This document shows, one piece after another, positions 23,997-52,630 of a DNA stretch of 64,000 nt. The number at the start of each line of letters is the position of its first letter. Position 1 is the stretch's first letter. Under the pieces are notes generated by a model. That model was not told where the DNA came from and did no database searches. It worked only from the letters and a program-made list of their open reading frames with translations. The DNA lies in IMG/VR virus record IMGVR_UViG_3300027801_000011, positions 51,310 to 115,309 of that record, one strand, 5' to 3'. The translations under genes and the position numbers were made by a program. Source of the DNA: a virus.

Positions 23997-24233
23997 ATGA
24001 GCGAATCAAAATTAATATCTGTTGAAGGAAAACCTGCTCTTGTAAGAGAGGAAGCTTCTGGTGCAATTATAAATAGGGATAGAGATGCTTATGATCAGGC
24101 AGTTAAGAGGGCTCGTTCAGCATCCGATCAAAGAGATGCTATAAGAGACACAACAAGAGAGATAAATACATTAAAGTGCGAAATGCATGAAATTAAAAGT
24201 CTATTACAATCTCTAGTGGAAGGTAAAAATTAA
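23997..24233 (+). CDS. Small conserved protein following VrlC
   Basis: VEG...LVREEASGAIIN and C-terminal coiled coil EINTLKCEMHEIKSLLQSL. Confidence 0.8.
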   Translation: MSESKLISVEGKPALVREEASGAIINRDRDAYDQAVKRARSASDQRDAIRDTTREINTLKCEMHEIKSLLQSLVEGKN

Positions 24234-31228: not shown

Positions 31229-31950
31229 AATTAGTAGCAATAGGAGATAGTTATACTATTAATGGTTCATGGCCAGACCTGTTAGCTGAAAAACTTGATA
31301 TGGAATGTATTAACTTTGGAGGCGATGGATCAGGCAATCAATTTATCATATCTAAAGTGTTAGATACTTTATTGCTTGAAGATGTTGGGTTGGTTGTTGT
31401 TCAATGGAGCGAATGGCAAAGGTTAGATTTCGAACATCACCCTAAGAGAAATAAGGGCTGGACTTCATTACACCCACATAGAGACAACTCTAGAGTAGAA
31501 AAATATCCCATGAGTTTAGAAGGAAGATGGACTATGATGGAGTATAGTAATTTTGTAGCATCTACTATGCTTTCCCTTAGACTCTTTGTCATTGCTCAGA
31601 AACTATTAAAAGATATTCCTCACCTTATGATGCAAGGGCCATATCCCCTAATTCAACCACAATATGACATGGGTAGAGCCGAGAGTTATAAATGGAACTA
31701 TAGTGAGGAAATGAAAAAGGTGTATTCAAACTGCTTAGATCATCAGCTAATGAATCAGATAGAAGAGGACACGTTTATCGGTTGGCCAATAATTGGAATG
31801 GGTGGATATAGTATGGACGGACTACTTGACGAAAATGATAGTACGAGACAAAAATACAGACAGGGCAACAACAACAGCACCCCCAATGATGCTGGAAATG
31901 AGATGATTTCGAAGGATATATATAAAGTATATAAGAAGGTTTATGGATGA
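31225..31950 (+). CDS. SGNH-like paralogue lacking the block V His
   Basis: GDSYT, NFGGDGSGN and WSEWQR are shared with 30274; STPNDAGN replaces THPNEEGH. Confidence 0.75.
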   Translation: MKLVAIGDSYTINGSWPDLLAEKLDMECINFGGDGSGNQFIISKVLDTLLLEDVGLVVVQWSEWQRLDFEHHPKRNKGWTSLHPHRDNSRVEKYPMSLEGRWTMMEYSNFVASTMLSLRLFVIAQKLLKDIPHLMMQGPYPLIQPQYDMGRAESYKWNYSEEMKKVYSNCLDHQLMNQIEEDTFIGWPIIGMGGYSMDGLLDENDSTRQKYRQGNNNSTPNDAGNEMISKDIYKVYKKVYG

Positions 31951-32699
31951 ATACAATATTATGCGTAAGGTGGGGTGACAAGTATGATCATACCTATGTT
32001 GAAAAACTAAAGGAACAGTGCGAACAAAATTGCTCTGTTCCATTTAACTTCTACTGTCTCACAGACAAACCAACTAAGCCATATGATATAAAACTTCCAA
32101 CTGAGTTGGATGAGTACTACTTAGAGGATCGTGGATTCTTTTGGGCGTATAGGAAGTATTATGCATTTGCATTGGCTGGTGATGATAATAAACTAAACGT
32201 AAAACATTTTTCTAGAATTAAGGGCGACAAATTCTTGCTGTTAGACCTTGATGTTATCATACACCAAGACCTTAAATATTTCTTTGATCTTCCTATGGAC
32301 AAGCCTTGGATGGTACGTGGATGGTGGAATAACATAGATACAGTTAAACAAAACTTTGCTAAACACAAATCTACGCCTCTTAACTCTTCCGTGATACGAT
32401 GGGATCGTGGGCAATTAGAAAGTGTCTATAAGAAAATCAAAACAAATGCTGAAGTAATCTTCTTTACATACCCCAGTGCCGATAACTATTTTAATCATCA
32501 CTGGTATAACTGTTGGGATGAAGACAAGGGATTCTTTAAAGCTTTCCCCAAAGGTGACGTATACTCTTGGTATAAGGGTAATGTATATCCTCATGATATG
32601 GCACCAAAGAAAATAAGAGAAGATCATAAAATATGTCTATTCAATAACTCTGGATATGATGAAGGCGACAACGATGATGAGATAAAGGAACTATGGTGA
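31947..32699 (+). CDS. GT-A fold glycosyltransferase
   Basis: ILCVRWGDKY..YVEKL..FYCLTD, DLD (DxD) and NSSVIRW. Confidence 0.8.
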   Translation: MNTILCVRWGDKYDHTYVEKLKEQCEQNCSVPFNFYCLTDKPTKPYDIKLPTELDEYYLEDRGFFWAYRKYYAFALAGDDNKLNVKHFSRIKGDKFLLLDLDVIIHQDLKYFFDLPMDKPWMVRGWWNNIDTVKQNFAKHKSTPLNSSVIRWDRGQLESVYKKIKTNAEVIFFTYPSADNYFNHHWYNCWDEDKGFFKAFPKGDVYSWYKGNVYPHDMAPKKIREDHKICLFNNSGYDEGDNDDEIKELW

Positions 32700-33343
32700 A
32701 TTATATAAAGTACACGCCTGAACTGGCAAACGATTGGAAACAAGCAGCTGCAGATGTTAAGAAAGATTACCCCCATCAGTTCAGACGCACTTTAGACGCT
32801 AGTACGGAATCTCAATTAAAAAGTAAACTATGGCTCGTTAACACCTTAAAAGAATTGGCGATGGATTCGTTGATACCAGACAACCCCCGTGTTGCTTTGG
32901 TAGGTGGCTGGTTTGCGAACTACCTAACACCTTTATTGTTTGATGTAATGTATGCTAAACAGGTATTCAATTATGAGATTGATAATGATGCAAAAGAAAT
33001 AAGCTACAAATACAATAAGAGATATAAGGATTCAGATAAATATCAATGTTCTGTTAAAGACGTTATGATGAAGTCTTTAGGAGACAACTATGATATTATT
33101 ATTAATTGTTCATGTGAACACATGTTTCCCATGACAAAATTCTATGAATGGAATCCAGACTTGCCTGATCCAGTGTATGTCTTACAATCCACAGATGAAG
33201 ACTGCTTTGATGATCATATCAATTGTGTGAGCTCCCCCGAAGAGTTAGCAAAACAAAACAGAATAACAGAAGTGTTATATTCGGGAACGAAGAAGTTACC
33301 TAACGGAATGAACCGTTTTATGGTTATAGGATATCCTTCATGA
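32693..33343 (+). CDS. Class I SAM-dependent methyltransferase-like protein
   Basis: SQLKSKLWL, VALVGGWF, YEID, DIIINCSCEHM and RFMVIG Rossmann pattern. Confidence 0.65.
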   Translation: MVNYIKYTPELANDWKQAAADVKKDYPHQFRRTLDASTESQLKSKLWLVNTLKELAMDSLIPDNPRVALVGGWFANYLTPLLFDVMYAKQVFNYEIDNDAKEISYKYNKRYKDSDKYQCSVKDVMMKSLGDNYDIIINCSCEHMFPMTKFYEWNPDLPDPVYVLQSTDEDCFDDHINCVSSPEELAKQNRITEVLYSGTKKLPNGMNRFMVIGYPS

Positions 33344-34032
33344 CAATTGTCGAGTGGTGCAGAGAGAATGATGTTTGGTATCTTAAAATGGATATAGAGA
33401 TACCAGAAGTATGCATTAAAGAAGCACAAGCAGTATACGATGAAGGGTTCTTTGTAGATCACAGATATGGAGATGGAGATGGTTGGCGTTCTGCTGCAAT
33501 ACATAGCTTCGTCCACGAAGACGCAAAAGATACCAGCATGGGTTGGCATCATACTAAAAACCCAGATGGCCATGGCTTACACGAAAGCAAAGTTAAATGG
33601 GGGTGGACTGAAATTGCAGAAACTGCTCCAGAGACTAAGAGGTGGTTAGAAGACTTTCCACACAAGTCTTATAGACGTTTACGTTTCATGTTATTGGAAC
33701 CACAGGGACGTATAGTAGCCCACAACGATTCTAATAAAAAAAGAGATGACGAAGGAAGAACTAGAAACATTGCTGGTGCAATAAACCTTGCGTTCTACCA
33801 ACCAAAAAATTGTTATCTGAGAAGGGTAGATACTAAAGAAGAGTTGCCCTTTCAAAACTGTACAGGGTTTTGGTTCGACAATGGTGTACACCACGAAGCA
33901 TATAACGCCTCTGAAGAAAATAGATTTCACTTTATTATGCATGGTGGATTTAATTCAGAGCGTAAAGAACTTATGAAGAGGTCGCTTGCAAAGCAATTTG
34001 GCAACGATGTTCTGAAGGAAATTGATGAGTAA
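33340..34032 (+). CDS. Aspartyl/asparaginyl beta-hydroxylase family (2OG-Fe(II))
   Basis: RLRFMLLEPQGRIVAHND, FDNGVHHEAYNASEENRFHFI. Confidence 0.85.
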   Translation: MTIVEWCRENDVWYLKMDIEIPEVCIKEAQAVYDEGFFVDHRYGDGDGWRSAAIHSFVHEDAKDTSMGWHHTKNPDGHGLHESKVKWGWTEIAETAPETKRWLEDFPHKSYRRLRFMLLEPQGRIVAHNDSNKKRDDEGRTRNIAGAINLAFYQPKNCYLRRVDTKEELPFQNCTGFWFDNGVHHEAYNASEENRFHFIMHGGFNSERKELMKRSLAKQFGNDVLKEIDE

Positions 34033-35278
34033 GCTTAAAGACTTGGAGTGGTTCTGTCCTCAGCCGTTCATGAACACTGTGATGAATCACGATCTTATTC
34101 CAAAGGCATGTTGTGTGCTAAAGCAGTGGCCTGGAAATGAAATACGTGAAACTGGTAAGACATCTATTATGGAAGTTCATAATTCAGATTTTATGAAAGA
34201 TTTCCGTAAAGAATTCTTAAACGGTGGCGGGCCAATATCTGATAAATTGTGCATGGTCTGTAAGGAACAAGAAAAACATTCCTCCACAGAAAGTCATCGA
34301 CTAACGTATCTAGATAAGTTTGATGAAGAACATGGAGAGTATAGAGAACATCTAGAGGCTCTTGAGGAGTACATTGATACAGACCAAAGCGATTCTATGT
34401 ATTTGACGTTTGAATATAATGCTCCTAATAACTTCTGCAACCTCAAATGTAACATGTGTTCCCCCATGAATTCATCTACATACGCCAAAGAGAATAAAGC
34501 AATAGGTGTTTCTAATGGAGCTCTAAGGGATGAGACTTGGATCAATCTTGAAGATGATATGTCAAGATATGAGGATGTGCTTAAAAACCTTATAGAATTG
34601 AAACTAGTTGGTGGTGAGACACTTGCTCTTCCTCAAAACTATGCGATGATGGATAAAGCAATAGAGATGGGCGTGTCTAAACAAATGAGACTTGTTATGA
34701 CTACAAATGCAACGCTGACTCCGAAGATGGGTAAGCATGGCGATGTGTTTGATTATGTCCCATACTTTAAAGATTGTCAAATGAATATCTCTATAGAATT
34801 TTGGGGAGAGAAGAATAACTATCTACGGTTCCCATCTAAATGGGAAAAGATTATGAAGAATGTTAAAAAGTTTGCTAAGATGCCCAGAACTAGGATACTA
34901 TTTGCTACCTGTGTTAGTTCTCTAACGATAGGATATCTACACGAAGTAGCTATAGCTGTTGATGCTCTGATAGAAAAAGAACCACACATTTACAATAGTT
35001 TTGCAACTGGCAGTTTGGTTATTGGTGGAACCAACTTATATACTGTAACAGCAATCCCAGAGGGAATTAGAGAAGAGTATCTTGAGACAATTTATAGTCG
35101 TGCTCCCCGAAACCATGCTCCCACATTCTTGAAACTGGCCAACTATCTAACAGAGATGCCTTTTGATCAAGACCTACATAATAGAATGATGATTGACGTA
35201 GCTAAGCGTGATAAATTTCGAGGAACCGTGTTGACAGATTTGTTCCCAGAGTGGAAACCATATTATGAAAAACTTTGA
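34025..35278 (+). CDS. Radical SAM protein with N-terminal twitch/SPASM-like Cys domain
   Basis: CNLKCNMC (CxxxCxxC), GGET, TTNAT, YLRFPSKW; N-terminal FCPQPF..ACC..CMVC. Confidence 0.9.
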   Translation: MSKLKDLEWFCPQPFMNTVMNHDLIPKACCVLKQWPGNEIRETGKTSIMEVHNSDFMKDFRKEFLNGGGPISDKLCMVCKEQEKHSSTESHRLTYLDKFDEEHGEYREHLEALEEYIDTDQSDSMYLTFEYNAPNNFCNLKCNMCSPMNSSTYAKENKAIGVSNGALRDETWINLEDDMSRYEDVLKNLIELKLVGGETLALPQNYAMMDKAIEMGVSKQMRLVMTTNATLTPKMGKHGDVFDYVPYFKDCQMNISIEFWGEKNNYLRFPSKWEKIMKNVKKFAKMPRTRILFATCVSSLTIGYLHEVAIAVDALIEKEPHIYNSFATGSLVIGGTNLYTVTAIPEGIREEYLETIYSRAPRNHAPTFLKLANYLTEMPFDQDLHNRMMIDVAKRDKFRGTVLTDLFPEWKPYYEKL

Positions 35279-36839
35279 TGAGTTTGGCAATGTAATAGTT
35301 GGGCGGGACGTAATGCCCTTCCGGCATCACGCCCTTGAACTATCAATTGTAGAACCATTTTTGGCATTTAAAGCTCTGTGGGAAAAAGAAACCAAAGACA
35401 TCAAAAATAAAAAAGAGTTAGAACACTTATTATTTGTAGTTGTATATCCAGACAAGTTGAAGTGGGCGTTTCATATTGAGAAACAACTACAAACAACTAC
35501 AATACAAACCTCAGGCGGTGTCACTGGCGCTGGTACTGGTCACAATCAAATATTGTGTCTAGAGAGTGAACTCCATAATACCCTACAAAACTCTAAAGCC
35601 TCCCATGCGATGATAGTAACGGTGGGTATGGTCTTTAATATGACTAAAGTAAATACTTCTATAACAAGATTTTATGAATTTGCAGAGACAGACGTATACG
35701 CTAGAGGTCATATTATAGCCCGCCCAGAAGATAAGGCATATCTACATCATCAACATATAGAGATAAACTTAAACCAGTGGAAAGGTTTAGGATCACCTAA
35801 AGTATATGAGAGGTGGCCTGTGTTTGAAAGATCAGAAGAAAACTTTCATGATGATTATACTCCACATTGGATTCTGCCTAAAGATCGCCCATTGATTAAT
35901 AACTTTACAGACGAAGAACGAAAAAATAAACATTTTGCATATCATATGGCGAACAGAAAAGATATACAGGAAATAAATTGGAGAGCGATGACACCACAGT
36001 TGCCAGACTATTGGTGGAAAAGTGCCGCAACTTTTAAGCATACACCTAAAGGAAGAGGGTTCTATGGTTGGCGTCAAAGGGTGGATAGGAGTGATCCTTA
36101 TTTTGATATCTTGATGAACAGGATGACTGAGGTTTTTTACGCTGAAAATACTGAAGAAGTTGGCCAACTCCCAACTGATAAATTTGATTTAATTATTACA
36201 CCAACAGCTGGTTATAGTGGAGAAGTGTTTGCTGAAAAACTAGATTTCGATGGAGAAATTATATTCTATGATTATTGTCATGAAAATGTTGAGATCAAAA
36301 AATCGATTGTTGATATGAATATGAGTCTTGATGAGATATCTATTTTGAAAAAGTATTGGAGTAAGGGCGTGGGTAATCGCAAAAATGGTAAAACTAGAAC
36401 CCATATGATTACGTTTAATTCCAATCAACTTTCTAATGGCAAGGAACTTAAAAAACGATCTGAGACTTTTGGAACTTGGGAAGAACTACAAGCCCTACAA
36501 GGTAAAATGTCTGATAACTATAAAGTTGATTTTTGGTTGATGGATTTGGTGTGTATGTCTGATCCCGATTGGTATCGGCCGACCAATATTTACTCAGATC
36601 ACTCCGACATACACAACAAATCGGGATATACAACAACTGAGAATTTTATAGATAAGATAAAGGGGAAGCGTGTGTTTATGGATTGTAGTAATATTTTCGG
36701 ATATCATATAGTACATGCTTGTTGGTCTTTATCTCAACTAGTTGAAAGTTATGAAAGACTTGTTAAACTGCTACAAGAGAACACCGAATATTTCTACTTA
36801 AAGGGAACTCGGCCCGGCAAACAGAAAATAAGAATATGA
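35265..36839 (+). CDS. Hypothetical 524-aa protein, possible C-terminal methyltransferase-like domain
   Basis: Long coupled ORF; RSEENFHDDYTPHWI; IIFYDY and FMDCSNIFGY weakly suggest a Rossmann fold. Confidence 0.6.
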   Translation: MKNFDEFGNVIVGRDVMPFRHHALELSIVEPFLAFKALWEKETKDIKNKKELEHLLFVVVYPDKLKWAFHIEKQLQTTTIQTSGGVTGAGTGHNQILCLESELHNTLQNSKASHAMIVTVGMVFNMTKVNTSITRFYEFAETDVYARGHIIARPEDKAYLHHQHIEINLNQWKGLGSPKVYERWPVFERSEENFHDDYTPHWILPKDRPLINNFTDEERKNKHFAYHMANRKDIQEINWRAMTPQLPDYWWKSAATFKHTPKGRGFYGWRQRVDRSDPYFDILMNRMTEVFYAENTEEVGQLPTDKFDLIITPTAGYSGEVFAEKLDFDGEIIFYDYCHENVEIKKSIVDMNMSLDEISILKKYWSKGVGNRKNGKTRTHMITFNSNQLSNGKELKKRSETFGTWEELQALQGKMSDNYKVDFWLMDLVCMSDPDWYRPTNIYSDHSDIHNKSGYTTTENFIDKIKGKRVFMDCSNIFGYHIVHACWSLSQLVESYERLVKLLQENTEYFYLKGTRPGKQKIRI

Positions 36840-37540
36840 AGATATTAGCATTAAGAATTGGTGATAAGTATGGCCCAGAGTATGAAGACTATTTGAATAA
36901 AAAACTATCCAAATATGACATACATTGGATGCATGAGCCGTATGATGAAAGAGTTACCTTACAGTGGAATAAGATGTGGGGTATGCAGTTGGATCAAAAT
37001 GAGCCTATTTGTGTCATGGACATAGATGTTCTTCTCATGGGCGACTACGAAAGAATATTTGACTATCCTATTATGCGTGGACAATTCCTTGCAATGCCTG
37101 GCTGGTGGAGAGACACAAAGAAAGAAGGTTACTCTATCAACGGTGGATTCTTTAAGTACTATCCGAAGGACTGTAAGTATATCTACGATAAGTTTATGAA
37201 AGATATACACGGGTGGCAGAGACACTACATTGATAATGGGGTTACAAAAGGCCCTGTTAATGGAGAGCAGTACTTTGTCGAAGACTCAGTATTACAAAAA
37301 TTAGAACTTATCACATTACCCAAAGAATGGTTTACTCGCTGGGTTGTAGACTCCGATATTGTAGGTAGGAGTATGACTACATGGCAAGTACAGATCACAC
37401 GTAAGTATCGGGAGATAACAGGGAACGACTATATATTCCTTGGTGGTGAGTTTCATCCAGATATCAAATTCGTACACTTCACACACAGAAATAACAAGCC
37501 TCATGAATGGGAATACTATGAACAAATTCGTTTACGTTAG
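36836..37540 (+). CDS. GT-A fold glycosyltransferase, paralogue of 31947
   Basis: ILALRIGDKYGPEY, WNK, DID (DxD), INGGF, GEQYFV, KFVHFT..NKPH. Confidence 0.8.
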   Translation: MKILALRIGDKYGPEYEDYLNKKLSKYDIHWMHEPYDERVTLQWNKMWGMQLDQNEPICVMDIDVLLMGDYERIFDYPIMRGQFLAMPGWWRDTKKEGYSINGGFFKYYPKDCKYIYDKFMKDIHGWQRHYIDNGVTKGPVNGEQYFVEDSVLQKLELITLPKEWFTRWVVDSDIVGRSMTTWQVQITRKYREITGNDYIFLGGEFHPDIKFVHFTHRNNKPHEWEYYEQIRLR

Positions 37541-38681
37541 TCATGAGTTTCGTACTCTATATCAGAGTATGTACTTCAAGAATACTCAGAAGGTCTGGGA
37601 TACTTCTTGGGTAGATGAAGACTTTAAAGAACAACTTGAATTTAAACTTCAAGAAGAACAACATATGCTTAGAAAATACACAAGGCCTCATACTGCATAC
37701 CTTAATGATATAGAAGGTGAGACTGAGCTTGTATTCAACATGAGTATGAAACATTTTGGTGAGCCCCAGAAATATGAATGGACTGCTGATCTGACAGAGA
37801 AATTTACAGACCTTCTTATGGAAAAAGCGATATCTATTAGAGACAAGGGTAGAAAAATTCAAGTATTATATTCTGGAGGAATTGACAGTTCTGCAGCACT
37901 ACTTGCTTTATATGAGGTTTGTCCTAAAGATCAGATTGAAGTTGTCATGGGAAGAACTGGCGAAGGTGGTGCTGGTTTTAGAGCTAAAGATCAGACTGAT
38001 CCTGTAAAGCAAAATCCTTGGATGTTTGATAATATTGTAAAACATTTGGATCACACATTCACTGATGATTTAAATGGTTACTGTGATCCTAGCAAATATG
38101 TGTTTGTCACAGGCAATGAAGCAGATCGTTTATTCGGGTCTACTGGTTATACTCTAATGACTCAATACTCTAAACCAGATGGTGCTGATTACCAAGAACA
38201 TTGGGGAAAGGCTCCAACTGATGAACTTGATGAAAATTGGCAATGGAACCAAAACAGGTGGTGGGGTATAACTAGGTACACATATCTTATGCAATCTTTT
38301 CGTATGATGGCAAACATTTCATGTGATAAGATTGATATGGACAACTACCAGCCCATGTTCTTTGATAGAAAGATGTTACAATTTGCTATCAATCTACATA
38401 TCCAAAAGAAACATAAGTGGTACAACTGTGGAGCCTTAGCAGATGAGAAGAAATTTAGAGATGGAAAGATGTGGATACGTGACGCTATATTTGATATAAC
38501 TAAAAATAGTTGGGTATCATATAACATGCATAAGACTATTTCATCTGCAACTGATCTTAATAAAAGGCAGTCTGTTCCTCTGCCATTGCGCTTGAAGGTG
38601 TTAGCAATAACAGAAGATGGTACAGTTGTTAATAGAAAAAATTTAATGGAATATGTCTGTAGGGAGTCTTTTACGATATGA
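37518..38681 (+). CDS. Asparagine-synthetase-like N-type ATP pyrophosphatase (PP-loop) ligase, no glutaminase domain
   Basis: YSGGIDSS and TGNEADRLFG; start set to ATG 37518 by alignment with the downstream paralogue. Confidence 0.8.
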   Translation: MNKFVYVSHEFRTLYQSMYFKNTQKVWDTSWVDEDFKEQLEFKLQEEQHMLRKYTRPHTAYLNDIEGETELVFNMSMKHFGEPQKYEWTADLTEKFTDLLMEKAISIRDKGRKIQVLYSGGIDSSAALLALYEVCPKDQIEVVMGRTGEGGAGFRAKDQTDPVKQNPWMFDNIVKHLDHTFTDDLNGYCDPSKYVFVTGNEADRLFGSTGYTLMTQYSKPDGADYQEHWGKAPTDELDENWQWNQNRWWGITRYTYLMQSFRMMANISCDKIDMDNYQPMFFDRKMLQFAINLHIQKKHKWYNCGALADEKKFRDGKMWIRDAIFDITKNSWVSYNMHKTISSATDLNKRQSVPLPLRLKVLAITEDGTVVNRKNLMEYVCRESFTI

Positions 38682-39823
38682 AAAAATTCTGCTATGTAAG
38701 TAATGATTTCAAAAATGCTTGGAGAATATTTTTTGCCAATAAGAAGATGTTATGGGATACCTCTTGGGTAGACGAATCTGTTTTGAAGAGATTCTTTGAA
38801 CTTTATAATAAAGAGAATTCTGATCTGAAGAAGTACTCTCGCCCAGCTAACTGGTATCTTAATGACCTAGAACAAAAGGATACTTATTTGTTTCCTATGG
38901 CACAATCACATTTTAACGGTGCTGGCCAGAAGTATGAATATACAGAGGGGTTGCCTTCTCTTAAAGATATCTTATTAGAGAGAGCCGCTGATATAAGGGA
39001 TCAAGGAAAACCTATTGAAATATTGTATTCTGGTGGGATAGATAGTTCAGCTGTAGTTCTTGCTTTTAATGAAGTATGTCCCAAAGATCAGCTGAAGATT
39101 TGGATGGCAGGAGATCATTGCATTACCAACAACAAAAATCTTTTTGATAAAATTGTTAGTAATTTGGAATGGGAAATGACAACAAATCTAAATGGTTGTT
39201 GTGACCCTAGTAAAAATGTATTCACATCTGGTAATGAAGCAGATAGATTGTTTGGTGCTGATGGTTACACTCAAATGATGGGACACTCAAAACGAGATGA
39301 GAATAGTAAGAACGGATATAAGATACTAGGGCCAAATGAACCACCCACTACAGATCATCCAGACAACTGGCAGTGGAACCAAGACCGATGGTGGGGTATT
39401 ACTAGTCACACATATCTAACACAGTCTTGGAGAATGTTACGTAATGTTGAATGTGATAAAATAGTTATGGATAATTTCCAGCCTTTGTTTTTTGATAAAA
39501 GAATATTACAGTATGCTATAAACATCCATATGGATGGAGAAATGAAGTGGTACAACTCTGGTCTATTGGCTGACCCTCAGAGATACAAAGAGGGCAAGAT
39601 TTGGGTAAGAAATTTTGTTTATGAAATGTCGGGCGATAAAGAATATTCTTATAATATCGGTAAGACATTAACTACTGTATCAGATATAAATGAAATGTTT
39701 AAGTTACCACTGGCTCCAGACTTTAATGTTCTTGGTGTTATGGACGATGGTACTGTTGTAAATAGAGACAATATGATGGAATATATGACCAAAGAACACA
39801 CATTGTTCTCTAATGCTATATAA
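38678..39823 (+). CDS. Asparagine-synthetase-like PP-loop ligase, tandem paralogue
   Basis: YSGGIDSS and SGNEADRLFG; colinear with 37518. Confidence 0.8.
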   Translation: MKKFCYVSNDFKNAWRIFFANKKMLWDTSWVDESVLKRFFELYNKENSDLKKYSRPANWYLNDLEQKDTYLFPMAQSHFNGAGQKYEYTEGLPSLKDILLERAADIRDQGKPIEILYSGGIDSSAVVLAFNEVCPKDQLKIWMAGDHCITNNKNLFDKIVSNLEWEMTTNLNGCCDPSKNVFTSGNEADRLFGADGYTQMMGHSKRDENSKNGYKILGPNEPPTTDHPDNWQWNQDRWWGITSHTYLTQSWRMLRNVECDKIVMDNFQPLFFDKRILQYAINIHMDGEMKWYNSGLLADPQRYKEGKIWVRNFVYEMSGDKEYSYNIGKTLTTVSDINEMFKLPLAPDFNVLGVMDDGTVVNRDNMMEYMTKEHTLFSNAI

Positions 39824-39832
39824 ATATAAATA
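39819..39832 (+). promoter_or_regulatory. Two overlapping T4 late promoters
   Basis: TATAAATATAAATA. Confidence 0.85.
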
Positions 39833-39851: not shown

Positions 39852-40196
39852 ATGGCTTTTACATTAACTACAACGTCTGTCGCAGTTAGAGATGACACAA
39901 GCACACCGTGGTTCCATGAAGTTGATAATGATGCAAGGACTGCCTTTTTAGCTTGGCGTGATACAAATTATATCGACACCAATAAAACTTCTGCATGGTC
40001 GGCTACTGAATCTGCTGATGAGACAACTCTTACTTCTGTACGACAATTTGTAGACAGGGATGGGATAAATGCATGGTTAGCGGAATCCAATGTAAAAACT
40101 CAGATGGCTGCTCGAAAAGTGTATGAAGATGCAAACGGAATTACTAGAACAGGCACAAGGATGCTTTTAGGCAGTTACCTTGCTTTCTCTGGTTAG
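39852..40196 (+). CDS. Late-expressed small protein, homologous to the C-terminal domain of the convergent kinase
   Basis: GAGGAG RBS and double late promoter; R....PW..YIDTNK..SADETTLTS..F.D..YEDANGI. Confidence 0.75.
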   Translation: MAFTLTTTSVAVRDDTSTPWFHEVDNDARTAFLAWRDTNYIDTNKTSAWSATESADETTLTSVRQFVDRDGINAWLAESNVKTQMAARKVYEDANGITRTGTRMLLGSYLAFSG

Positions 40197-40197: not shown

Positions 40198-41106
40198 TTA
40201 TTCAACAAATGATTCTATACCTTGTTCTTTATTATACTGAGACAGCAATTCTCTTCGTGCCACAATCACTGGGTCTTCTAGATAATCAATGTTGGCTGAC
40301 TTGTCTTTAAATATAGTACGAGACGTTTTTGACAATCCATCCTTAGACATCATCGTATTGGTTGTAATCATTTTGCCAGTATCTCTATATGTTTCCATAA
40401 TATGTGCTTTGTGATCTTCTGATTGCTCTGACCATTCTACATCAACACTTGGTCTAGTCTGGATCAGTATAGTCATATAACCTTTTACTTGAGCGTCAGT
40501 CATTTTCATTCGTTCAAATTTCTGTATAGCATCTGGTTCATCGTGACGCAGAAGGCCTCGCTCCTCTCGTATTCTAATAGAGTTAGCAATAGAAACTCTG
40601 TTCAATACTTCAACAACATCAATATCAATTTTCCAAGGGACATGCTTGTGGTAGTGAGTGAGCAATTCTTCTAGTCCATTCCAACCAATCCAACGGTGAA
40701 CCATTCTAAATTCCCAGTGAGGATTACATTTGGATTTTGCTTCCCAATCTATTAGTCCAGTAAGATTTCCCTGCTCATCTACAAAAATATTCTGTCTCCA
40801 CAAGTCTCCATGAATTATACACCGTTCTTCACCCAAAGGCCCTTTTAGTTCTGCTAAGTCAAACAAAGCATCTTCTATATATTCGTCTTTAGTTGCCATC
40901 GGCATTAAAGACTTTATTACAGAGTGCATTTGGTGTGGACGGATACCTTTGACTCTGAGATTGGTACTGTGTAATTCTCCCAACAAATTTCCAAGTTGCT
41001 CGTTGAATTTACGACTAGGCATTATAGGCCCACCCTTACCATAAGTATGAGCGAGCTGTTCGCCTGGCACGTGCTGGCCCTTTATCATTTGATCTAAAGT
41101 AACCAT
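40198..41106 (-). CDS. APH/choline-kinase-like phosphotransferase fused to an approximately 95-aa domain
   Basis: Brenner motif IIHGDLWRQNIFVD and GLIDWE; LGNLLGELH. Confidence 0.85.
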   Translation of the reverse strand: MVTLDQMIKGQHVPGEQLAHTYGKGGPIMPSRKFNEQLGNLLGELHSTNLRVKGIRPHQMHSVIKSLMPMATKDEYIEDALFDLAELKGPLGEERCIIHGDLWRQNIFVDEQGNLTGLIDWEAKSKCNPHWEFRMVHRWIGWNGLEELLTHYHKHVPWKIDIDVVEVLNRVSIANSIRIREERGLLRHDEPDAIQKFERMKMTDAQVKGYMTILIQTRPSVDVEWSEQSEDHKAHIMETYRDTGKMITTNTMMSKDGLSKTSRTIFKDKSANIDYLEDPVIVARRELLSQYNKEQGIESFVE

Positions 41107-41777: not shown

Positions 41778-42376
41778 TCAAACCACCCTTTAATCTCTTC
41801 AATATTTTCAAATTTCTTTTCATAGTCTATGCCCATCTTAATTGTTAACACAGTTTGCACAGTGTTATCAACCTCTAATCCATACTGCTCTTGTAGATGA
41901 GCAAGAGTACTTAAAGGATCATCTAGAAAATTCTCAAACGCTACTAGAGCTCCTTCATTGTGAGTATAATAGAAATCCCAGAACTGTTCTAGCTTAGTCA
42001 TAAACCTATCATATTCTTCTTTGGTAGCTATGAGACTATTATCTTTAATCTCTGGCCTCTCAGATGCGTAATGAATGTGGTTGACTTTTGTTCGTAAACG
42101 TGTTATATGACTCAAAAATTGTGATAGTACGTCTTTTCTATACAACCAGATACAGGGAAATCCACTAATCATTTCCCCGAAGTGTTGATCTTCTGGTAGG
42201 TAGTGGGGAAGGATTTTAAGAAGGTGTGGTTGTGTTGCCCAGTTCTGCTCATCTATATCTTTATAGTCATTCTTCTTTAGCCATGAGGCAGGGTCATATA
42301 GTCCGAAGGTGTTGCAAAGGAACCTACGGAAATACGTGCTACCACTCCTAGACGTTGCAATTAACCCTATTCTCAT
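41774..42376 (-). CDS. Sulfotransferase-fold (Stf0-like) protein
   Basis: MRIGLIATSRSGSTYF, LYRKDVLSQFLS and FENFL; start set to ATG 42376. Confidence 0.75.
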   Translation of the reverse strand: MRIGLIATSRSGSTYFRRFLCNTFGLYDPASWLKKNDYKDIDEQNWATQPHLLKILPHYLPEDQHFGEMISGFPCIWLYRKDVLSQFLSHITRLRTKVNHIHYASERPEIKDNSLIATKEEYDRFMTKLEQFWDFYYTHNEGALVAFENFLDDPLSTLAHLQEQYGLEVDNTVQTVLTIKMGIDYEKKFENIEEIKGWFE

Positions 42377-42381
42377 GTACC

Positions 42382-42389
42382 TATATATA
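42382..42389. promoter_or_regulatory. Palindromic TATATATA, putative bidirectional late promoter
   Basis: The only element in the 16-bp gap between divergent ATGs 42376(-) and 42393(+). Confidence 0.55.
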
Positions 42390-42392
42390 ACT

Positions 42393-42866
42393 ATGAAAGT
42401 TATTGAATCTACATTCGAGGAAGTGTTTCCTGTCTGGCGTGACAGACTGTGGCCCAATAGGATTAGTGCAATTGAACCTATGAGTAGTCTGTGCTGGAGG
42501 CAACCAAAAGATATAATAAAGGACAGTTCGATATTCGATAAGTATGTCCCCAGTTTCTTTGCTTTGAAGATAGATGATGAAATTGTTGGAGTGAATAGTG
42601 GATTTAAAACAAGTGAGAAAGTTTATCGTTCTAGAGGATTGTGGGTAAGTGAACAACATAGAGGTAGGGGATTTGGCCAACTTCTTTTGTTACAAGCAAT
42701 AGTTCAAGGTAAAAGCGAAGACTGTCATTGGATATGGAGTATGCCACGAAAAACCGCTTTGGGGTCTTACGAGAAGGTAGGATTCAAAAAAAGAGGTAAG
42801 TGGATAGACCAAAAGGTAGAATTTGGGCCCAATTGTCTGGCTACCCGCCAGATAATATATAAATAG
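42393..42866 (+). CDS. GNAT acetyltransferase
   Basis: YRSRGLWVSEQHRGRGFGQLLL acetyl-CoA motif A and YEKVGF; start ATG 42393. Confidence 0.88.
   Translation: MKVIESTFEEVFPVWRDRLWPNRISAIEPMSSLCWRQPKDIIKDSSIFDKYVPSFFALKIDDEIVGVNSGFKTSEKVYRSRGLWVSEQHRGRGFGQLLLLQAIVQGKSEDCHWIWSMPRKTALGSYEKVGFKKRGKWIDQKVEFGPNCLATRQIIYK
42858..42865 (+). promoter_or_regulatory. T4 late promoter
   Basis: TATAAATA upstream of gp13. Confidence 0.85.
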
Positions 42867-46193: not shown

Positions 46194-47138
46194 ATGAAAA
46201 CCATTCGTTGGGTGCTAGCACACGAACCTATTGAATTATTTCTTAGGGCTGCAAAACATTTTAAAGCAACTATGGAAGAGAAGATGCCGGGCGCTATTAA
46301 CTTGGAAATCTTAACTCTATCAGAATATGCCGAGAAGTACAAGCCTGGCGAGAAGATCACAAAACACGATCTTCTTCAATTGATGGAGGACGGTGAGATA
46401 GAAATGTCTCAGATGTATACTTCTACTCTTGGACGTACTCACGCAAAAGATATGTGGGCCCTAGATATGCCGTTCATCTTTAAAGATCACGATCACGCAA
46501 AAGAAGTGCTTGAGGGTGATATCGGCAAGTCTCTCCTTGCTGGTCTTAATAAGAACAGTAATGTTCAAGGCCTTGCGTTTACCTACTCTGGTGGATTTCG
46601 AATGATCCCTGCTAACGTAGAACTACACAAGATTGAAGACTTTGAAGGTCAGAAGTTGCGTTGCAACAAATCTCCTATCGCAGAAGAAACTCTTAGTGCT
46701 GTTGGTGCTGTCCCTGTTCCTATGGAACTTGAGCAGATCAACGAAGGTGTACAGGGTGATATCATTGTTGGTGGTGAGTCTACTTATCCCCGTTTCTATG
46801 GTTTGAAACAGAATGAGTTCATGGACACAATCAACGATGCAGAACATTCATTGTTCCTTACTACAATTCTTGTTGCTAAGGATTTCTGGAACACTCTTGA
46901 TCTTGAGCTGCAAACCGAAATTGAAGATGCATCTTTTGATGCAGCTAGGGCAGAACGTGTCTGGTCTGTAGAAGACATTGACATTGTTAAGTCCAAATGT
47001 GAGAAAGATACCATTAAGGTAGTCACCATGTCTGATAAGGAACGTCTGCGTTTCAAAGAGGCAACTGAGTATATGTATGAAAAATATGATGATATGTTTA
47101 CGCCAGGGCTACTTCAAAGTATCAAATATGATGCATGA
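46194..47138 (+). CDS. dctP: TRAP solute-binding protein DctP-like, no signal peptide
   Basis: LDMPFIFKDHDHA..VLEGDIG..LL, YSGGFR, IEDFEGQKLR, GAVPVPM, H.LF, FWNTL..ELQ. Confidence 0.88.
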   Translation: MKTIRWVLAHEPIELFLRAAKHFKATMEEKMPGAINLEILTLSEYAEKYKPGEKITKHDLLQLMEDGEIEMSQMYTSTLGRTHAKDMWALDMPFIFKDHDHAKEVLEGDIGKSLLAGLNKNSNVQGLAFTYSGGFRMIPANVELHKIEDFEGQKLRCNKSPIAEETLSAVGAVPVPMELEQINEGVQGDIIVGGESTYPRFYGLKQNEFMDTINDAEHSLFLTTILVAKDFWNTLDLELQTEIEDASFDAARAERVWSVEDIDIVKSKCEKDTIKVVTMSDKERLRFKEATEYMYEKYDDMFTPGLLQSIKYDA

Positions 47139-48325
47139 AAATAATTAATCACTGTTCTCTAACAAGAACATACGGAATACGTCCAGAACTAAAACTTTAT
47201 AATCCTTTAGATTTAGAGGATATTTCTGGCTATGAATCCACTCATATTGGGGAACTGTTCAACAACTTCATCTATGGTTTAGGTGTGTTGGTTGAAACAG
47301 ATGCCCCGTATGATAGACTTGGTAGAGACAACAATCTCAACGTAGATTTCGATCCTATCCCAAAAATCCCAAATAACTGGAATAGAGAATTCGGAGATAT
47401 ATGTGACCAGAGAGCTCAAGAGTTATGGGCCCTGGGAAAACCTATTCGATGTTGGTGGTCTGGTGGTATAGACAGCACCACAACTCTTACTGCTCTTATA
47501 CGAACTAAGAAACCAGAAGACACGCTTAGTATCTGGATGAGCAAACAATCTGTTGAAGAAAATCCTACCTACTACGAAAAAATAAAGAACTTGAATATAG
47601 AGTGGGCTACTAAGGAAACTCTACTAGCAAAGAAATCTCTGTGGAATGGTAAGGTGTTAAATGTCAACGGTGAGTGTGGTGATCCTATGTACGGAACATT
47701 CGTCATTGAAAAACACATAGAAGAACTAGATGATCACTGGCACACATTTCTAGACTTTGAAGATGTAAACTTCATATACAAAGACAGTCCCATGAGAGGA
47801 CGCTTCATGGATTATCTTGAGGAACATATCACTCATTGTCCATTTGAGATTAAAAATCCTTTTGATATCGCATGGTGGTTAGCGTTTACAACCAAGTGGC
47901 AGTGGATAGAACGCCGTTGGTTTGGATTCCTAGAAGACCCATCTGGATATAAAAATCTGGTTGCTTTCTTCAACGATCCAGAGTTTCAGATATGGAGTAT
48001 GACTAATCATCATCTGAAGCATAAGGGAACGTACAAAACATACAAGTGGCCTTCTAAAAAGTACATCTATGATTTTAATCCAGATTCAAATTACTTGATG
48101 AATAAGACAAAAGAAAAAAGTTTACCTAAGACTATGGGGAGCTTTAAAACCTTTCCTTTTAGAAACCAGAATAGAGTTGTATTTGATAACGGTGACTATT
48201 ATCCGTTTGGAGATGATGGAGAGATATTCCCTATCATGCCAACAGACGTACCAAAATGGGATTTATTTAATAAGCCAGTTTGGGATAGATACAAGACTAT
48301 GGAACCTATTCGCATAAATAGTTAA
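47135..48325 (+). CDS. Asparagine-synthetase-like PP-loop ligase (third copy), coupled to DctP
   Basis: WSGGIDST and NGECGDPMYG; ATGA overlap with the dctP stop. Confidence 0.8.
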   Translation: MKIINHCSLTRTYGIRPELKLYNPLDLEDISGYESTHIGELFNNFIYGLGVLVETDAPYDRLGRDNNLNVDFDPIPKIPNNWNREFGDICDQRAQELWALGKPIRCWWSGGIDSTTTLTALIRTKKPEDTLSIWMSKQSVEENPTYYEKIKNLNIEWATKETLLAKKSLWNGKVLNVNGECGDPMYGTFVIEKHIEELDDHWHTFLDFEDVNFIYKDSPMRGRFMDYLEEHITHCPFEIKNPFDIAWWLAFTTKWQWIERRWFGFLEDPSGYKNLVAFFNDPEFQIWSMTNHHLKHKGTYKTYKWPSKKYIYDFNPDSNYLMNKTKEKSLPKTMGSFKTFPFRNQNRVVFDNGDYYPFGDDGEIFPIMPTDVPKWDLFNKPVWDRYKTMEPIRINS

Positions 48326-51693: not shown

Positions 51694-52630
51694 TTAACTT
51701 CAATACTTTATACGCAAATCTAGCGCCATTATGAATAGGAACTCCGCTTTCTTTAGAGTACATATTCTTCCTGTCGAAACCGCTAACCATCTTAGACGAT
51801 TTCTTATAAACCTCAGCATTGTTGTAAAGAGCAATAACCATGCTCGAAACAACTGGAACAGGCACATCTTTATGTGCCCATAAGACATAAGGGAATGTTA
51901 GTACACGTGTTGCACCCCTTACTTCTGGTGTTCTTTTCTTAGGATGTACAGTGGTTACAGAAAAGTTTTTCCAACCATGTAGCAACCTTTTTTCTGCTTC
52001 TCCTCCATTGAGAGATAAAACACGGATACCACCGTCACTCAAAGCCTCAGCATGTAATTTCTTAGTATGGCCTGCACCAATAGCAACAATAGTCACATCC
52101 ACCCGTCCTTGCCGAAAGGCGTTCCAATTGCCTGGCAAAGAAGTTACTGGTACACGTTTAACGTCATCCCACACTAGAGCGGGGTTAGAATTAAGTAGTT
52201 TGTGTTTAATATTCCAATGGAATCCAGGCGCTCCACGAAATCCAGAAGGCACTCGTTTGCCCTTTAGATCATCATAGTTTTTGATGCCTGAGTTATCCCG
52301 AACAGCAAGTCCTGTCTGGAAGAAGTGTAAATTAGCCACAAAACGTAGATTTTTGTGTGCTTTTTTTGATGTACGGATACCTGTGTATCCCCAATAAAAG
52401 TCCGTAGGATTGCTAATCCCAAAGTCTAGTTCTTTATTATCAACCTTTTCAAGATAAGATTGAGTACCACGATGAGGGATGGGGGTTAATGTTAATCCAG
52501 CCGCTCTCATAGTTTTCGCAAGTGCAAGGCCAGTTTGTGCATTAGCACTGCCCTTTGTAGTCCCTAACGTCTCAGCTAAAGATGTAGTTGTCATGGCGAC
52601 TAATACTAGTGCCGCAATAATGAATTTCAT
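51686..52630 (-). CDS. TAXI-family TRAP solute-binding protein with Sec signal peptide
   Basis: CAGGAG RBS then MKFIIAALVLVAMTTTSLA; NLRFVANL, DSGIK..DDLKGKRV-like segment, VPIHNGA..Y. Confidence 0.85.
   Translation of the reverse strand: MKFIIAALVLVAMTTTSLAETLGTTKGSANAQTGLALAKTMRAAGLTLTPIPHRGTQSYLEKVDNKELDFGISNPTDFYWGYTGIRTSKKAHKNLRFVANLHFFQTGLAVRDNSGIKNYDDLKGKRVPSGFRGAPGFHWNIKHKLLNSNPALVWDDVKRVPVTSLPGNWNAFRQGRVDVTIVAIGAGHTKKLHAEALSDGGIRVLSLNGGEAEKRLLHGWKNFSVTTVHPKKRTPEVRGATRVLTFPYVLWAHKDVPVPVVSSMVIALYNNAEVYKKSSKMVSGFDRKNMYSKESGVPIHNGARFAYKVLKLID

What the first reader, a model, noticed from the sequence alone, without database searches (positions are those of the whole stretch)
37518..39823. 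Tandem glutaminase-less asparagine-synthetase-like ligases (third copy at 47135)
Seen: two colinear paralogues share WDTSWVDE, YSGGIDSS, EVCPKDQ, GNEADRLFG, NWQWNQ.RWWGIT, KWYN.G.LAD and DGTVVNR.N.MEY. A more distant third copy has SGGIDS and GECGDPMYG. None has an N-terminal Cys/Ntn glutaminase domain. Known: this synthetase domain adenylates carboxylates for amide formation (AsnB, beta-lactam synthetase, lasso cyclase). Inference: these are ATP-dependent carboxylate-amine ligases using an external amine, possibly as a heterodimer acting on peptide Asp/Glu or uronic acids.
Basis: partly seen in the sequence, partly recalled or inferred. Interest (0 to 1): 0.8.

Follow-up and report, generated by a model that had tools for sequence, protein, structure and literature searches.

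The report
Phage asparagine-synthetase-like amide ligases, multi-copy
A marine T4-like phage carries four copies of a stand-alone enzyme shaped like the bond-forming half of asparagine synthetase; it belongs to a large, unstudied, mostly phage-borne family that tends to sit beside tail-fibre genes, and its substrate is unknown.

Summary
The genes at 37518-38681 and 38678-39823 are 46% identical, translationally coupled paralogues. The gene at 47135-48325 is a distant third copy. A fourth copy lies outside the window.

None reaches Pfam's Asn_synthase threshold. A confident AlphaFold model nevertheless matches beta-lactam synthetase, human and E. coli asparagine synthetase, carbapenam synthetase and TsnB9 best (Z 11-12.5 over 220-240 residues). 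Other PP-loop enzymes score lower over only about 150 residues. The PP-loop and the GE..D..FG motif are intact, and there is no glutaminase domain.

The family has about 660 clusters at 50% identity. Those looked up are metagenomic and unnamed. It reaches five tandem copies per phage.

It lies just downstream of tail-fibre genes in four unrelated phage lineages. It is often followed by a small dimeric alpha+beta-barrel protein. It also recurs next to TRAP acid-binding or transport genes.

Best reading: ATP-dependent carboxylate-adenylating amide ligases using an external amine. The substrate is probably a sugar acid or organic acid tied to fibre or surface decoration. An obligate heterodimer is not supported, because most relatives have one copy at this position.

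This scan has reported the same family on other phage DNA.

The parts
37518..38681 (+). AsnB-synthetase-like PP-loop ligase, copy 1 (387 aa; alternative start 37503)
   Evidence: PP-loop YSGGIDSS, GNEADRLFG and QPMFFDRKMLQFAINL are intact. It carries a 13-residue insertion relative to copy 2.
38678..39823 (+). AsnB-synthetase-like PP-loop ligase, copy 2 (381 aa), translationally coupled to copy 1
   Evidence: AF2 model pLDDT 86, pTM 0.88. Fold matches: beta-lactam synthetase Z 12.5, ASNS 12.1, CarA 11.8, AsnB 11.7, TsnB9 11.0.
47135..48325 (+). Distant third copy (396 aa), separate clade, AsnB-like E-x-x-D spacing (GECGD)
39852..40196 (+). Small partner protein (114 aa) with a dimeric alpha+beta-barrel (ABM/Dabb) fold, directly downstream of the ligase pair
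   Evidence: AF2 pLDDT 89. ActVA-Orf6 Z 9.7 over 102 aa, and many ABM proteins at Z 8-9. It follows a ligase gene in 15+ viral loci, in 1-3 copies. It also lies near the ligase gene in Xanthomonas and Comamonas prophages.
39819..39832 (+). Doubled T4-type late promoter TATAAATA in front of the small partner gene
40198..41106 (-). APH/Mph-like small-molecule kinase core fused to a C-terminal copy of the small partner domain (residues 211-298)
   Evidence: Profile of the small-protein family hits the C-terminus at E 1e-19.
36836..37540 (+). Probable GT-A-type nucleotide-sugar transferase (234 aa) immediately upstream, overlapping the start of copy 1
   Evidence: Atlas score 0.99 to viral clusters auto-named nucleotide-diphospho-sugar transferase, and 0.95 to a GT8 cluster. 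It has a DxD motif and is distantly related to 31947-32699 (hhalign E 6e-5). This is a lead, not proven.
46194..47138 (+). DctP-type (TRAP) binding protein without a signal peptide; its stop overlaps the start of copy 3
   Evidence: Pfam DctP E 5e-44. The N-terminus MKTIRWVLAHEP has no leader. The conserved Arg aligns with the solved binding proteins, and the best PDB match is 4N8Y at E 2e-23, which binds galacturonate (PMC11668362).
46163..46170 (+). Late promoter TATAAATA driving the DctP-like gene and copy 3
24068..24075 (+). Late promoter TATAAATA, the nearest upstream of the same-strand gene run from the 1029-aa fibre-region gene through the enzyme island to the ligase pair
   Evidence: No other TATAAATA lies between 24075 and 39819.
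33340..34032 (+). Asp/Asn beta-hydroxylase-like 2OG oxygenase in the same island; this type of gene recurs next to family members elsewhere
   Evidence: Pfam PF05118 E 1e-8. An AspH-like gene is adjacent to the ligase gene in L003/L035 and in the podophage L049.

Best explanation
The three window genes, plus a fourth elsewhere in the genome, encode stand-alone, N-terminally truncated relatives of the synthetase (C-terminal) domain of class-II asparagine synthetase.

Inferred mechanism, by analogy with AsnB, beta-lactam synthetase and carbapenam synthetase: the PP-loop binds ATP-Mg. A substrate carboxylate is adenylated with release of pyrophosphate. An external nucleophile (ammonia or an amine, since there is no glutaminase domain) then attacks to give an amide.

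They are late-expressed accessory genes of a large, mostly phage-borne, multi-copy family that rides with tail-fibre modules.

The most likely substrate class is a small sugar acid or organic acid, free or as a glycan unit. For copy 3 it would be handed over by the signal-less DctP-type binding protein. For the tandem pair it would be processed together with the downstream alpha+beta-barrel protein and the surrounding glycosyltransferase-like, kinase, sulfotransferase and carbamoyltransferase genes. The product probably decorates the fibres or the cell surface.

Shown here: fold, motifs, copy number, synteny and promoters. Inferred: adenylation chemistry, external amine and substrate class.
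For: Fold. AF2 pLDDT 86. The twelve best PDB entries are all AsnB-class enzymes, at Z 11.0-12.5 over 216-239 aligned residues. The next family, GMP synthetase, scores 10.1 over 152 residues (Foldseek ranks the same enzymes first).

Motifs. SGGIDS maps to AsnB 234-239. (T/N)GE..D..(F/Y)G maps to AsnB SGEGSDEVFGG 345-355, collinear in hhalign and hmmsearch. The PP-loop Ser, Gly and Asp residues (S118-S123 in copy 2) are invariant across all four copies, as are Lys307 and Lys329. 3 of 30 distant family members hit Pfam Asn_synthase weakly. BFVD holds same-length viral look-alikes that UniProt names 'Asparagine synthase'.

Family size. 664 representative clusters at E<=1e-3.

Acid-binding link. 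Copy 3 overlaps the stop of a leaderless DctP-type protein that keeps the carboxylate-binding Arg. In L004, five tandem copies are followed by DctQ-DctM-DctP. In L027 the same TRAP set lies two genes away.

Partner. An ABM/Dabb-fold protein follows the ligase gene in marine phages and in Mu-like prophages of Xanthomonas and Comamonas.

Island neighbours are small-molecule or sugar-type enzymes. Late promoters.
Against: No biochemical data exist.

Sequence-level similarity to AsnB is weak: Pfam E 0.27, PDB profile E 0.05, hhalign probability 19-26% against a single AsnB sequence.

The C-terminal motif matches (PFLD-like, EKxxLR-like, K449-like) were made by eye. Only the first has modest support (44-48 of 2000 shuffles reach the score) and it is not significant for copy 3.

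In the tandem pair's clade the Glu is shifted by one position (G-N/C/S-E-A-D) relative to AsnB's E-x-x-D.

Near-orthologous copies sit in different contexts: after ThyX, between gp15 and gp16, and after the 524-aa gene. Neighbourhood is therefore a weak guide. Adjacency to TRAP genes could simply reflect a small number of insertion hot spots.

No uronic-acid synthesis gene (UDP-glucose dehydrogenase) and no APS kinase were found in the record, which is 64% complete.
Confidence: 0.5

Rival explanations
1. Protein-directed ligases. They adenylate Asp/Glu side chains or a C-terminus of tail-fibre (virion) proteins, giving side-chain amides or isopeptide cross-links. They would act as part of a fibre post-translational modification kit alongside hydroxylases, glycosyltransferases, a kinase and sulfotransferases.
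For: Family members lie just downstream of tail-fibre genes in four unrelated lineages. These are the window; the SU10-portal podophage L049, with a tail-fibre-tip gene four called ORFs upstream; Pseudomonas phage Cygsa01, one gene after a fibre with a Peptidase_S74 chaperone domain; and Mu-like prophages, ordered baseplate gp47, fibre S-like, 199-aa gene, ligase. Asp/Asn beta-hydroxylase-like or prolyl-hydroxylase-like 2OG oxygenases sit next to the ligase gene in several contexts. The genes are late-expressed. Lasso cyclases show that the AsnB fold can act on peptides (established knowledge).
Against: The conserved partner has an ABM/Dabb fold, not a peptide-recognition (RRE) fold. No precursor peptide or leader protease was recognised. 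Copies also occur in replication or nucleotide-metabolism regions. The end of the fibre module is a common site for accessory cargo, so adjacency may be positional only.
Confidence: 0.22
2. Ring-forming enzymes of the beta-lactam synthetase / carbapenam synthetase type, or serial amide-bond builders, in a phage-encoded small natural-product pathway. Each paralogue would perform one step.
For: Beta-lactam synthetase and CarA are among the top fold matches (Z 12.5 and 11.8). 2OG oxygenases, radical SAM enzymes, ABM-fold proteins, a carbamoyltransferase and sulfotransferases are typical tailoring enzymes. Up to five tandem paralogues occur.
Against: Z values for AsnB/ASNS are tied with those for beta-lactam synthetase. 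No scaffold-forming enzyme (crotonase, CEAS, NRPS or PKS) was detected among the neighbours. Strong late-promoter control is unusual for a metabolite pathway.
Confidence: 0.08
3. Nucleic-acid-directed PP-loop enzymes, modifying tRNA or DNA bases in the manner of TilS, QueC or MnmA, or serving as a Mom-like anti-restriction module.
For: Cygsa01's copies are annotated MnmA. The fourth copy lies between ThyX and gp32. In Mu-like prophages the genes sit after the fibre genes, where Mu carries its late DNA-modification gene mom (position from established knowledge; context). Bdellovibrionales contexts include a CmoA-like methyltransferase.
Against: Fold matches to TilS (Z 7.8), MnmA (4.8), LarE (7.7) and NAD synthetase (9.2) are lower and cover only the ~130-150-residue PP-loop core. 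No Pfam hit to the QueC, TilS, MnmA or NAD synthase models appeared at E<=1. The AsnB-specific second motif is present.
Confidence: 0.08
4. The proteins are plain ammonia-dependent asparagine (or glutamine) synthetases that boost an amino-acid pool during infection.
For: They share the AsnB fold and lack a glutaminase domain. The phage also carries acid transport and binding genes.
Against: The proteins are highly divergent, with four copies in this genome and runs of five in others (25-48% identity between this genome's copies), which does not fit one housekeeping reaction. They fall far below the equivalog model TIGR01536 (13 bits against 267). The N-terminal region is new.
Confidence: 0.04

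Closest known systems
Synthetase (C-terminal) domain of class-II asparagine synthetase and its relatives: E. coli AsnB (1ct9), human ASNS (6gq3, 8sue, 9b6c), beta-lactam synthetase (1jgt, 1mc1), carbapenam synthetase CarA (1q15, 1q19), hydroxyamidotransferase TsnB9 (7ylz)
   Same: They share the PP-loop SGGxDS and the downstream GE..D..FG(G) motif. The overall fold matches over 216-239 residues, including the helical C-terminal subdomain (Z 11.0-12.5). The expected chemistry is also the same: carboxylate adenylation followed by amide formation.
   Different: These proteins are about 380 aa against 500-560, with no Ntn glutaminase domain and no degenerate N-domain. They have a new ~90-residue N-terminal region with its own conserved motifs (RP..LND / DRT). 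They fall below the Pfam and NCBIfam thresholds. In the tandem pair's clade the Glu is shifted by one residue. The family is mostly phage-borne and multi-copy.
Lasso-peptide cyclases (McjC type; AsnB-fold enzymes acting on peptides)
   Same: They have the AsnB-type adenylating fold, lack glutaminase activity, and are associated in some clusters with kinases, sulfotransferases and hydroxylases (recalled from the literature, not tested here).
   Different: No precursor peptide, RRE protein or leader protease was found. The conserved small neighbour has an ABM/Dabb fold, not an RRE fold.
Stand-alone ammonia-dependent PP-loop amidoligases: NH3-dependent NAD+ synthetase NadE, the GMP synthetase ATP-PPase subunit, QueC
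   Same: They have a stand-alone PP-loop ATP pyrophosphatase core and use an external nitrogen donor.
   Different: The fold match covers only the ~135-155-residue core (Z 8-10). They lack the AsnB second motif and the C-terminal subdomain.
AsnB-family sugar or cell-wall amidotransferases (WbpS-type uronamide formation; AsnB1/LtsA amidation of meso-diaminopimelate)
   Same: They are AsnB-type enzymes that amidate a carboxylate of a surface glycan or peptidoglycan unit, inside glycan gene clusters. This is the functional analogy favoured here and comes from established knowledge.
   Different: Those enzymes keep the glutaminase domain and are clear PF00733 members.
The same unnamed phage family reported earlier in this scan on other genomes (e1-5347964, e1-5374598, e1-5705260, e1-5725053, e1-5826969, e1-5978855)
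   Same: Those notes also describe stand-alone AsnB-fold ligases, tandem copies, an unknown substrate and association with acid-binding proteins.
   Different: Those notes stress an upstream helper protein of unknown fold. Here the conserved neighbour is a downstream ABM/Dabb-fold protein, and the fibre-gene adjacency and the Mu-like prophage homes are new.

Membership tests
AsnB-type synthetase domain (Pfam PF00733 Asn_synthase) | PP-loop SGGxDS ATP pyrophosphatase motif | tested here: met
   YSGGIDSS occurs twice and WSGGIDST once. The PP-loop Ser, Gly and Asp residues are invariant in 17- and 35-sequence family alignments, with Ile/Leu/Val at position 121. The whole motif is invariant across all four genome copies.
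AsnB-type synthetase domain (Pfam PF00733 Asn_synthase) | Score above the curated family threshold | tested here: not met
   PF00733 E 0.27, 11.3 bits against a 21-bit cut-off for copy 2 only. TIGR01536 scores 13.4 against 267 bits. 3 of 30 distant relatives reach E<0.01.
AsnB-type synthetase domain (Pfam PF00733 Asn_synthase) | Second catalytic motif (S/T)GEGxDE(L/V)FGG (AsnB E348/D351) | tested here: met
   Collinear alignment of VTGE.GDQLFGS / NGECGDPMYG / TGNEADRLFG to AsnB 344-356. In the tandem pair the Glu is displaced by one residue.
AsnB-type synthetase domain (Pfam PF00733 Asn_synthase) | Whole-domain fold including the C-terminal helical subdomain | tested here: met
   VIA-align Z 11.0-12.5, rmsd 4.0-4.8 A, 216-239 residues aligned to 12 AsnB-class entries. 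Model residues 1-376 are spanned.
AsnB-type synthetase domain (Pfam PF00733 Asn_synthase) | Catalytic lysine equivalent to AsnB K449 and the PFLD / EKxxLR motifs | tested here: inconclusive
   Correspondences were made by eye. Lys307 and Lys329 are invariant in the four copies. In the Smith-Waterman test of the C-terminal segment, 44-48 of 2000 shuffles reach the score for the pair, and the result is not significant for copy 3.
Glutamine-dependent class-II amidotransferase (full-length AsnB) | N-terminal Ntn glutaminase domain with Cys at position 1 after Met removal | tested here: not met
   The proteins begin MNK, MKK and MKI. The PP-loop is at ~residue 118 against 234 in AsnB. The modelled N-terminus is mostly helical.
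AsnB-type synthetase domain (Pfam PF00733 Asn_synthase) | Substrate-dependent ATP-PPi exchange / acyl-adenylate formation | not testable with these tools
   This needs purified protein.
Lasso-peptide cyclase system | Co-located precursor peptide with an RRE (PqqD-like) protein and a leader protease | tested here: not met
   The conserved small neighbour folds as an ABM/Dabb barrel. No protease or RRE family was found among the neighbours by Pfam, PHROGs or NCBIfam. Several neighbours remain unannotated.
tRNA/nucleobase PP-loop enzymes (MnmA, TilS, QueC) | Match to the family models, or closest fold | tested here: not met
   No Pfam hit to these families at E<=1. Fold scores: TilS Z 7.8, MnmA Z 4.8. 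QueC appears only as a PP-loop-only sequence match at E 0.38. The MnmA label in Cygsa01 rests on the PP-loop only.
Beta-lactam synthetase / carbapenam synthetase pathways | Partner enzymes that make the beta-amino acid substrate (CEAS or CarB crotonase) | tested here: inconclusive
   None was detected among the annotated neighbours, but several neighbours have no recognisable family.

The most novel reading that the evidence does not exclude
A phage-borne 'acid capture and amide ligation' system. Multi-copy truncated AsnB-fold ligases would work with leaderless TRAP-type binding proteins and an ABM-fold partner to attach small organic or sugar acids through amide bonds to tail fibres or their glycans. 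This would tune adsorption or host range. Such ATP-dependent enzymatic decoration of phage receptor-binding organelles has not been described, yet the genes occur in marine T4-like phages, podophages, a Pseudomonas phage and Mu-like prophages.
Probability: 0.25. Interest if true: 0.8.

Novelty: new variant of a known kind. Interest (0 to 1): 0.55.

Why it matters
The family has about 660 clusters at 50% identity, yet every member looked up is an unnamed metagenomic protein, and none of the ten clusters looked up holds an NCBI or UniRef record. It is carried in up to five copies by abundant marine T4-like phages related to those of SAR11 and OM43.

It keeps the catalytic core of a well-understood enzyme class, so its chemistry can be tested directly. 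It also recurs next to tail-fibre genes in unrelated phages. If it modifies fibres or surface glycans, it would be a new layer of host-range control.

In practical terms, the only cultured-phage copies, in Pseudomonas phage Cygsa01, are mis-annotated as MnmA. That phage offers a tractable system for a knock-out.

Tried and rejected
- **Heterodimer idea.** Rejected as a requirement. The tree shows the pair is a lineage-specific duplication, and most related loci have a single copy at that position.
- **Lasso/RiPP reading.** The small neighbour is not an RRE.
- **QueC / TilS / MnmA placement.** Not supported.
- **Cultured-phage collection.** DNA and protein BLAST with copies 1 and 2 found nothing. 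Copy 3 and the Xanthomonas homologue hit only Cygsa01.
- **PDB sequence searches.** Family profiles gave only PP-loop-level hits.
- **Neighbour profiles against the PDB.** The 234-, 524- and 250-aa neighbours gave nothing. The 216-aa neighbour gave a weak spermidine-synthase-like hit.
- **The search for related loci on bacterial genomes.** Alignments A3 and A4 failed for lack of a conserved stretch. Alignment A1, the tandem-pair clade, found no relative in bacterial genomes. A narrower type-C alignment found 25 loci.
- **Own-genome searches.** APS kinase and UDP-glucose dehydrogenase were both absent.
- **Literature.** Full-text searches found no description of this family; these searches were not exhaustive.
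- **Small protein versus kinase C-terminus.** Pairwise BLAST found nothing. A family profile did find the match.
Full report
**What the window is.** It is part of a 115,309-base IMG/VR virus record, bases 51310-115309, estimated 64% complete. The phage is a marine T4-like myophage. It has neck genes gp13/14/15, small and large terminase, sheath and tube. Its large terminase is 68-69% identical to those of Methylophilales phage Melnitz and Pelagibacter phage HTVC008M, family Kyanoviridae.

**Observation.** The ORFs at 37518-38681 and 38678-39823 are colinear paralogues, 46% identical with E 2e-126. All the quoted motifs are present. The first gene's stop overlaps the second's start behind a GGGAG site. 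The ORF at 47135-48325 is a distant relative, 31% identical over 112 residues with E 3e-10. None begins with Met-Cys. The PP-loop lies near residue 118, against 234 in E. coli AsnB.
- A profile search of the whole record found a fourth, intact 354-aa copy outside the window at G000:C1:30736-31800. It lies between a tryptophan-halogenase-like gene plus thyX on one side and gp32 on the other.

**What they are.** Standard libraries do not recognise them.
- Pfam gives only Asn_synthase at E 0.27 on the PP-loop. PHROGs gives weak PAPS-reductase hits. NCBIfam gives asn_synth_AEB at 13 bits.
- A 17-sequence family alignment gave a confident AlphaFold model, pLDDT 86 and pTM 0.88.
- The twelve best PDB entries are all AsnB-class enzymes: beta-lactam synthetase Z 12.5, human ASNS 12.1, CarA 11.8, E. 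coli AsnB 11.7 and TsnB9 11.0, with 216-239 residues aligned.
- The next families (GMP synthetase, NAD synthetase, TilS, LarE) score Z 7.5-10.1 over only 125-165 residues. MnmA scores 4.8.
- Profile comparisons with E. coli AsnB align the PP-loop and, collinearly, the AsnB motif SGEGSDEVFGG. This corresponds to NGECGDPMYG in copy 3 and TGNEADRLFG in the pair, where the Glu is displaced by one residue.
- Further C-terminal correspondences (PFLD-like, EKxxLR-like, K449-like) were made by eye. Only the first has modest statistical support.
- The model's first ~90 residues align with the end of the AsnB N-domain and the linker. The family therefore looks like an N-terminally truncated AsnB relative rather than a bare PP-loop protein.
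That is not met.

**Size and spread of the family.**
- A word-indexed search found 16 clusters of close relatives, unnamed or labelled 'hypothetical protein'.
- An exhaustive profile search found 664 representative clusters at E<=1e-3 and 94 at E<=1e-10, mostly 320-400 aa.
- Ten clusters looked up are metagenomic 'hypothetical proteins', apart from one algal transcriptome entry. None is in NCBI or UniRef.
- BFVD holds same-length viral look-alikes, some auto-named 'Asparagine synthase'.
- Among 50,697 cultured-phage records, only Pseudomonas phage Cygsa01 has relatives. It carries a tandem pair annotated MnmA.
- Copy number is high. This genome has four. Locus L004 has five in tandem between gp16 and the terminase. 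L047, another T4-like phage, has five within 8 kb.
- The tree shows the window's pair as sisters (support 92/85). Copy 3 falls in a separate clade. Near-orthologous genes occupy different genomic positions in different phages.

**Context of the tandem pair.** Thirty-seven related viral loci show a conserved cassette between the fibre genes and gp13. Its order is:
- fibre-region genes;
- carbamoyltransferase and DUF6071 genes;
- two unknown genes, one with a weak Rossmann methyltransferase-like match;
- an Asp/Asn hydroxylase-like oxygenase;
- radical SAM genes and a 524-aa unknown;
- a probable GT-A transferase;
- one or two ligase genes;
- one to three small ~100-aa genes;
- on the other strand, an APH/Mph-like kinase and two sulfotransferase-like genes;
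- a GNAT gene in the related loci (in the window, a 185-aa ORF at 42309-42866 that I did not scan holds this position);
- then gp13 (supporting).

No T4-type late promoter lies between 24068 and 39819, so the pair is probably transcribed with the fibre-region gene at 24234. A doubled TATAAATA precedes the small gene.

**The small partner protein.** It folds as a dimeric alpha+beta barrel (ABM/Dabb), pLDDT 89, ActVA-Orf6 Z 9.7. Its domain also forms the C-terminus of the window's kinase, at profile E 1e-19.

**Context of copy 3.** It is driven by the late promoter at 46163. Its start overlaps the stop of a DctP-type binding protein that has no signal peptide and keeps the conserved Arg. The best solved relative of that protein, 4N8Y, binds galacturonate (PMC11668362). 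Relatives with other ligands score almost as well. Complete TRAP sets (DctQ, DctM, DctP) follow the five ligase genes of L004 and lie two genes from a ligase gene in L027.

**Contexts elsewhere.**
- In a podophage with an SU10-type portal (L049), the ligase gene lies four called ORFs downstream of a tail-fibre-tip gene. An NlpC/P60 gene and three small ORFs lie between them, and an Asp/Asn hydroxylase gene follows the ligase gene directly.
- In Cygsa01 the pair follows a fibre gene with a Peptidase_S74 chaperone domain.
- A narrower alignment found 25 loci in bacterial genomes.
- In Xanthomonas albilineans, the genes upstream of the ligase gene are a Mu gp47-type baseplate gene (E 7e-43) and a Mu fibre-S-like gene. 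ORF sizes show the same layout in Xanthomonas sp. GPE 39 and Undibacterium. A homologue of the small Dabb protein lies downstream in both Xanthomonas loci and in Comamonas phosphati (E ~1e-9 to 1e-10). These loci are Mu-like prophages or tailocins.
- Bdellovibrionales loci have tandem pairs next to a CmoA-like methyltransferase gene.
- The family therefore sits after fibre genes in four unrelated lineages. It also occurs in replication regions.

**Interpretation.**
- Shown: an AsnB-type adenylating fold with intact nucleotide-binding motifs, no glutaminase domain, late promoters, multi-copy expansion, and recurrent neighbours (fibre genes, the ABM-fold partner, TRAP binding or transport genes, 2OG oxygenases).
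- Inferred: carboxylate adenylation and amide formation with an external amine.
- Substrate: I favour a sugar acid or organic acid whose product ends up on fibres or the cell surface. The evidence is the binding-protein coupling, the small-molecule-type partner fold, and neighbours that are sugar or small-molecule enzymes.
- Rivals: a protein side-chain target on the fibres is the main one. Ring formation, nucleic-acid modification and plain asparagine synthesis are less likely.
- Caveat: gene neighbourhood is weak evidence here, because the genes move between a few insertion hot spots.

**Prior knowledge.**
- Islands of glycosyltransferase genes are known in marine cyanomyoviruses and are thought to alter cell surfaces (PMC12801897).
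- That paper cites work on virion glycosylation in mycobacteriophages.
- PP-loop enzymes with protein substrates have been proposed for QatC-QatB (PMC13376578 abstract).
- I found no paper describing this family.
- Earlier notes of this scan report the same family on other phage genomes, also linked to acid-binding proteins. My TRAP/DctP observations were made before I read those notes and agree with them.

**Limits.** Only two structure predictions were available, so copy 3 and the neighbours were not modelled.

Noticed in passing
G000:C1:30736-31800 (L045:9736-10800), outside the window: A fourth intact copy of the ligase family (354 aa, 39% identical to copy 2). It lies between a tryptophan-halogenase-like gene plus thyX on one side and a weakly MptE/Maf-like gene plus gp32 on the other.
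   Followed up: partly
window 39852-40196 and 40198-41106: The small protein has an ABM/Dabb fold and is preceded by a doubled late promoter. The same domain is fused to the C-terminus of the convergent APH-like kinase here. In related phages the kinase lacks this domain, and 1-3 free copies occur instead.
   Followed up: yes
L004:6335-15135: Five tandem ligase paralogues lie between gp16 and the large terminase gene. They are directly followed by a complete TRAP transporter (DctQ, DctM, DctP).
   Followed up: partly
L047:8470-16201: Another T4-like phage carries five ligase paralogues within 8 kb in a PhoH / RNase H region, with a cupin-domain gene between them.
   Followed up: partly
L040 (Pseudomonas phage Cygsa01, PP179332.1 11421-13570): Two tandem genes annotated 'tRNA-specific 2-thiouridylase MnmA' belong to this AsnB-like family. 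The annotation is probably wrong. They lie just after a fibre gene with a Peptidase_S74 chaperone domain.
   Followed up: partly
L066 (Xanthomonas albilineans CFBP2523), L057, L055, L060, L061: Mu-like prophage or tailocin regions in the order baseplate gp47-type gene, fibre S-like gene, 199-aa gene, ligase gene. A Dabb-type small protein lies downstream in L066, L057 and L055.
   Followed up: partly
window 46194-47138: A DctP-type binding protein with no signal peptide, so presumably cytoplasmic. It keeps the carboxylate-binding Arg. Its best solved relative binds galacturonate.
   Followed up: partly
window 36836-37540 and 31947-32699: Two distantly related genes share GDKY, DxD and GWW motifs and are probably GT-A-type sugar transferases. 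Neither is recognised by Pfam.
   Followed up: partly
window 34022-35278: A twitch-domain radical SAM protein that scores above the NCBIfam cut-off (NF033640, 234 bits). Related loci carry two other radical SAM types at the same place.
   Followed up: no
window 50392-52654 (minus strand): Two genes (433 and 322 aa) sit behind a minus-strand late promoter between the terminase and sheath genes, conserved in several related loci. A first-reader note calls them a TAXI-TRAP transporter. I did not test this.
   Followed up: no
window 35265-36839: A 524-aa protein conserved in 14 related loci directly upstream of the transferase and ligase genes has no recognisable family. The Atlas lists a 688-aa viral cluster carrying an Asp/Asn hydroxylase domain among its look-alikes (score 0.83).
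   Followed up: partly
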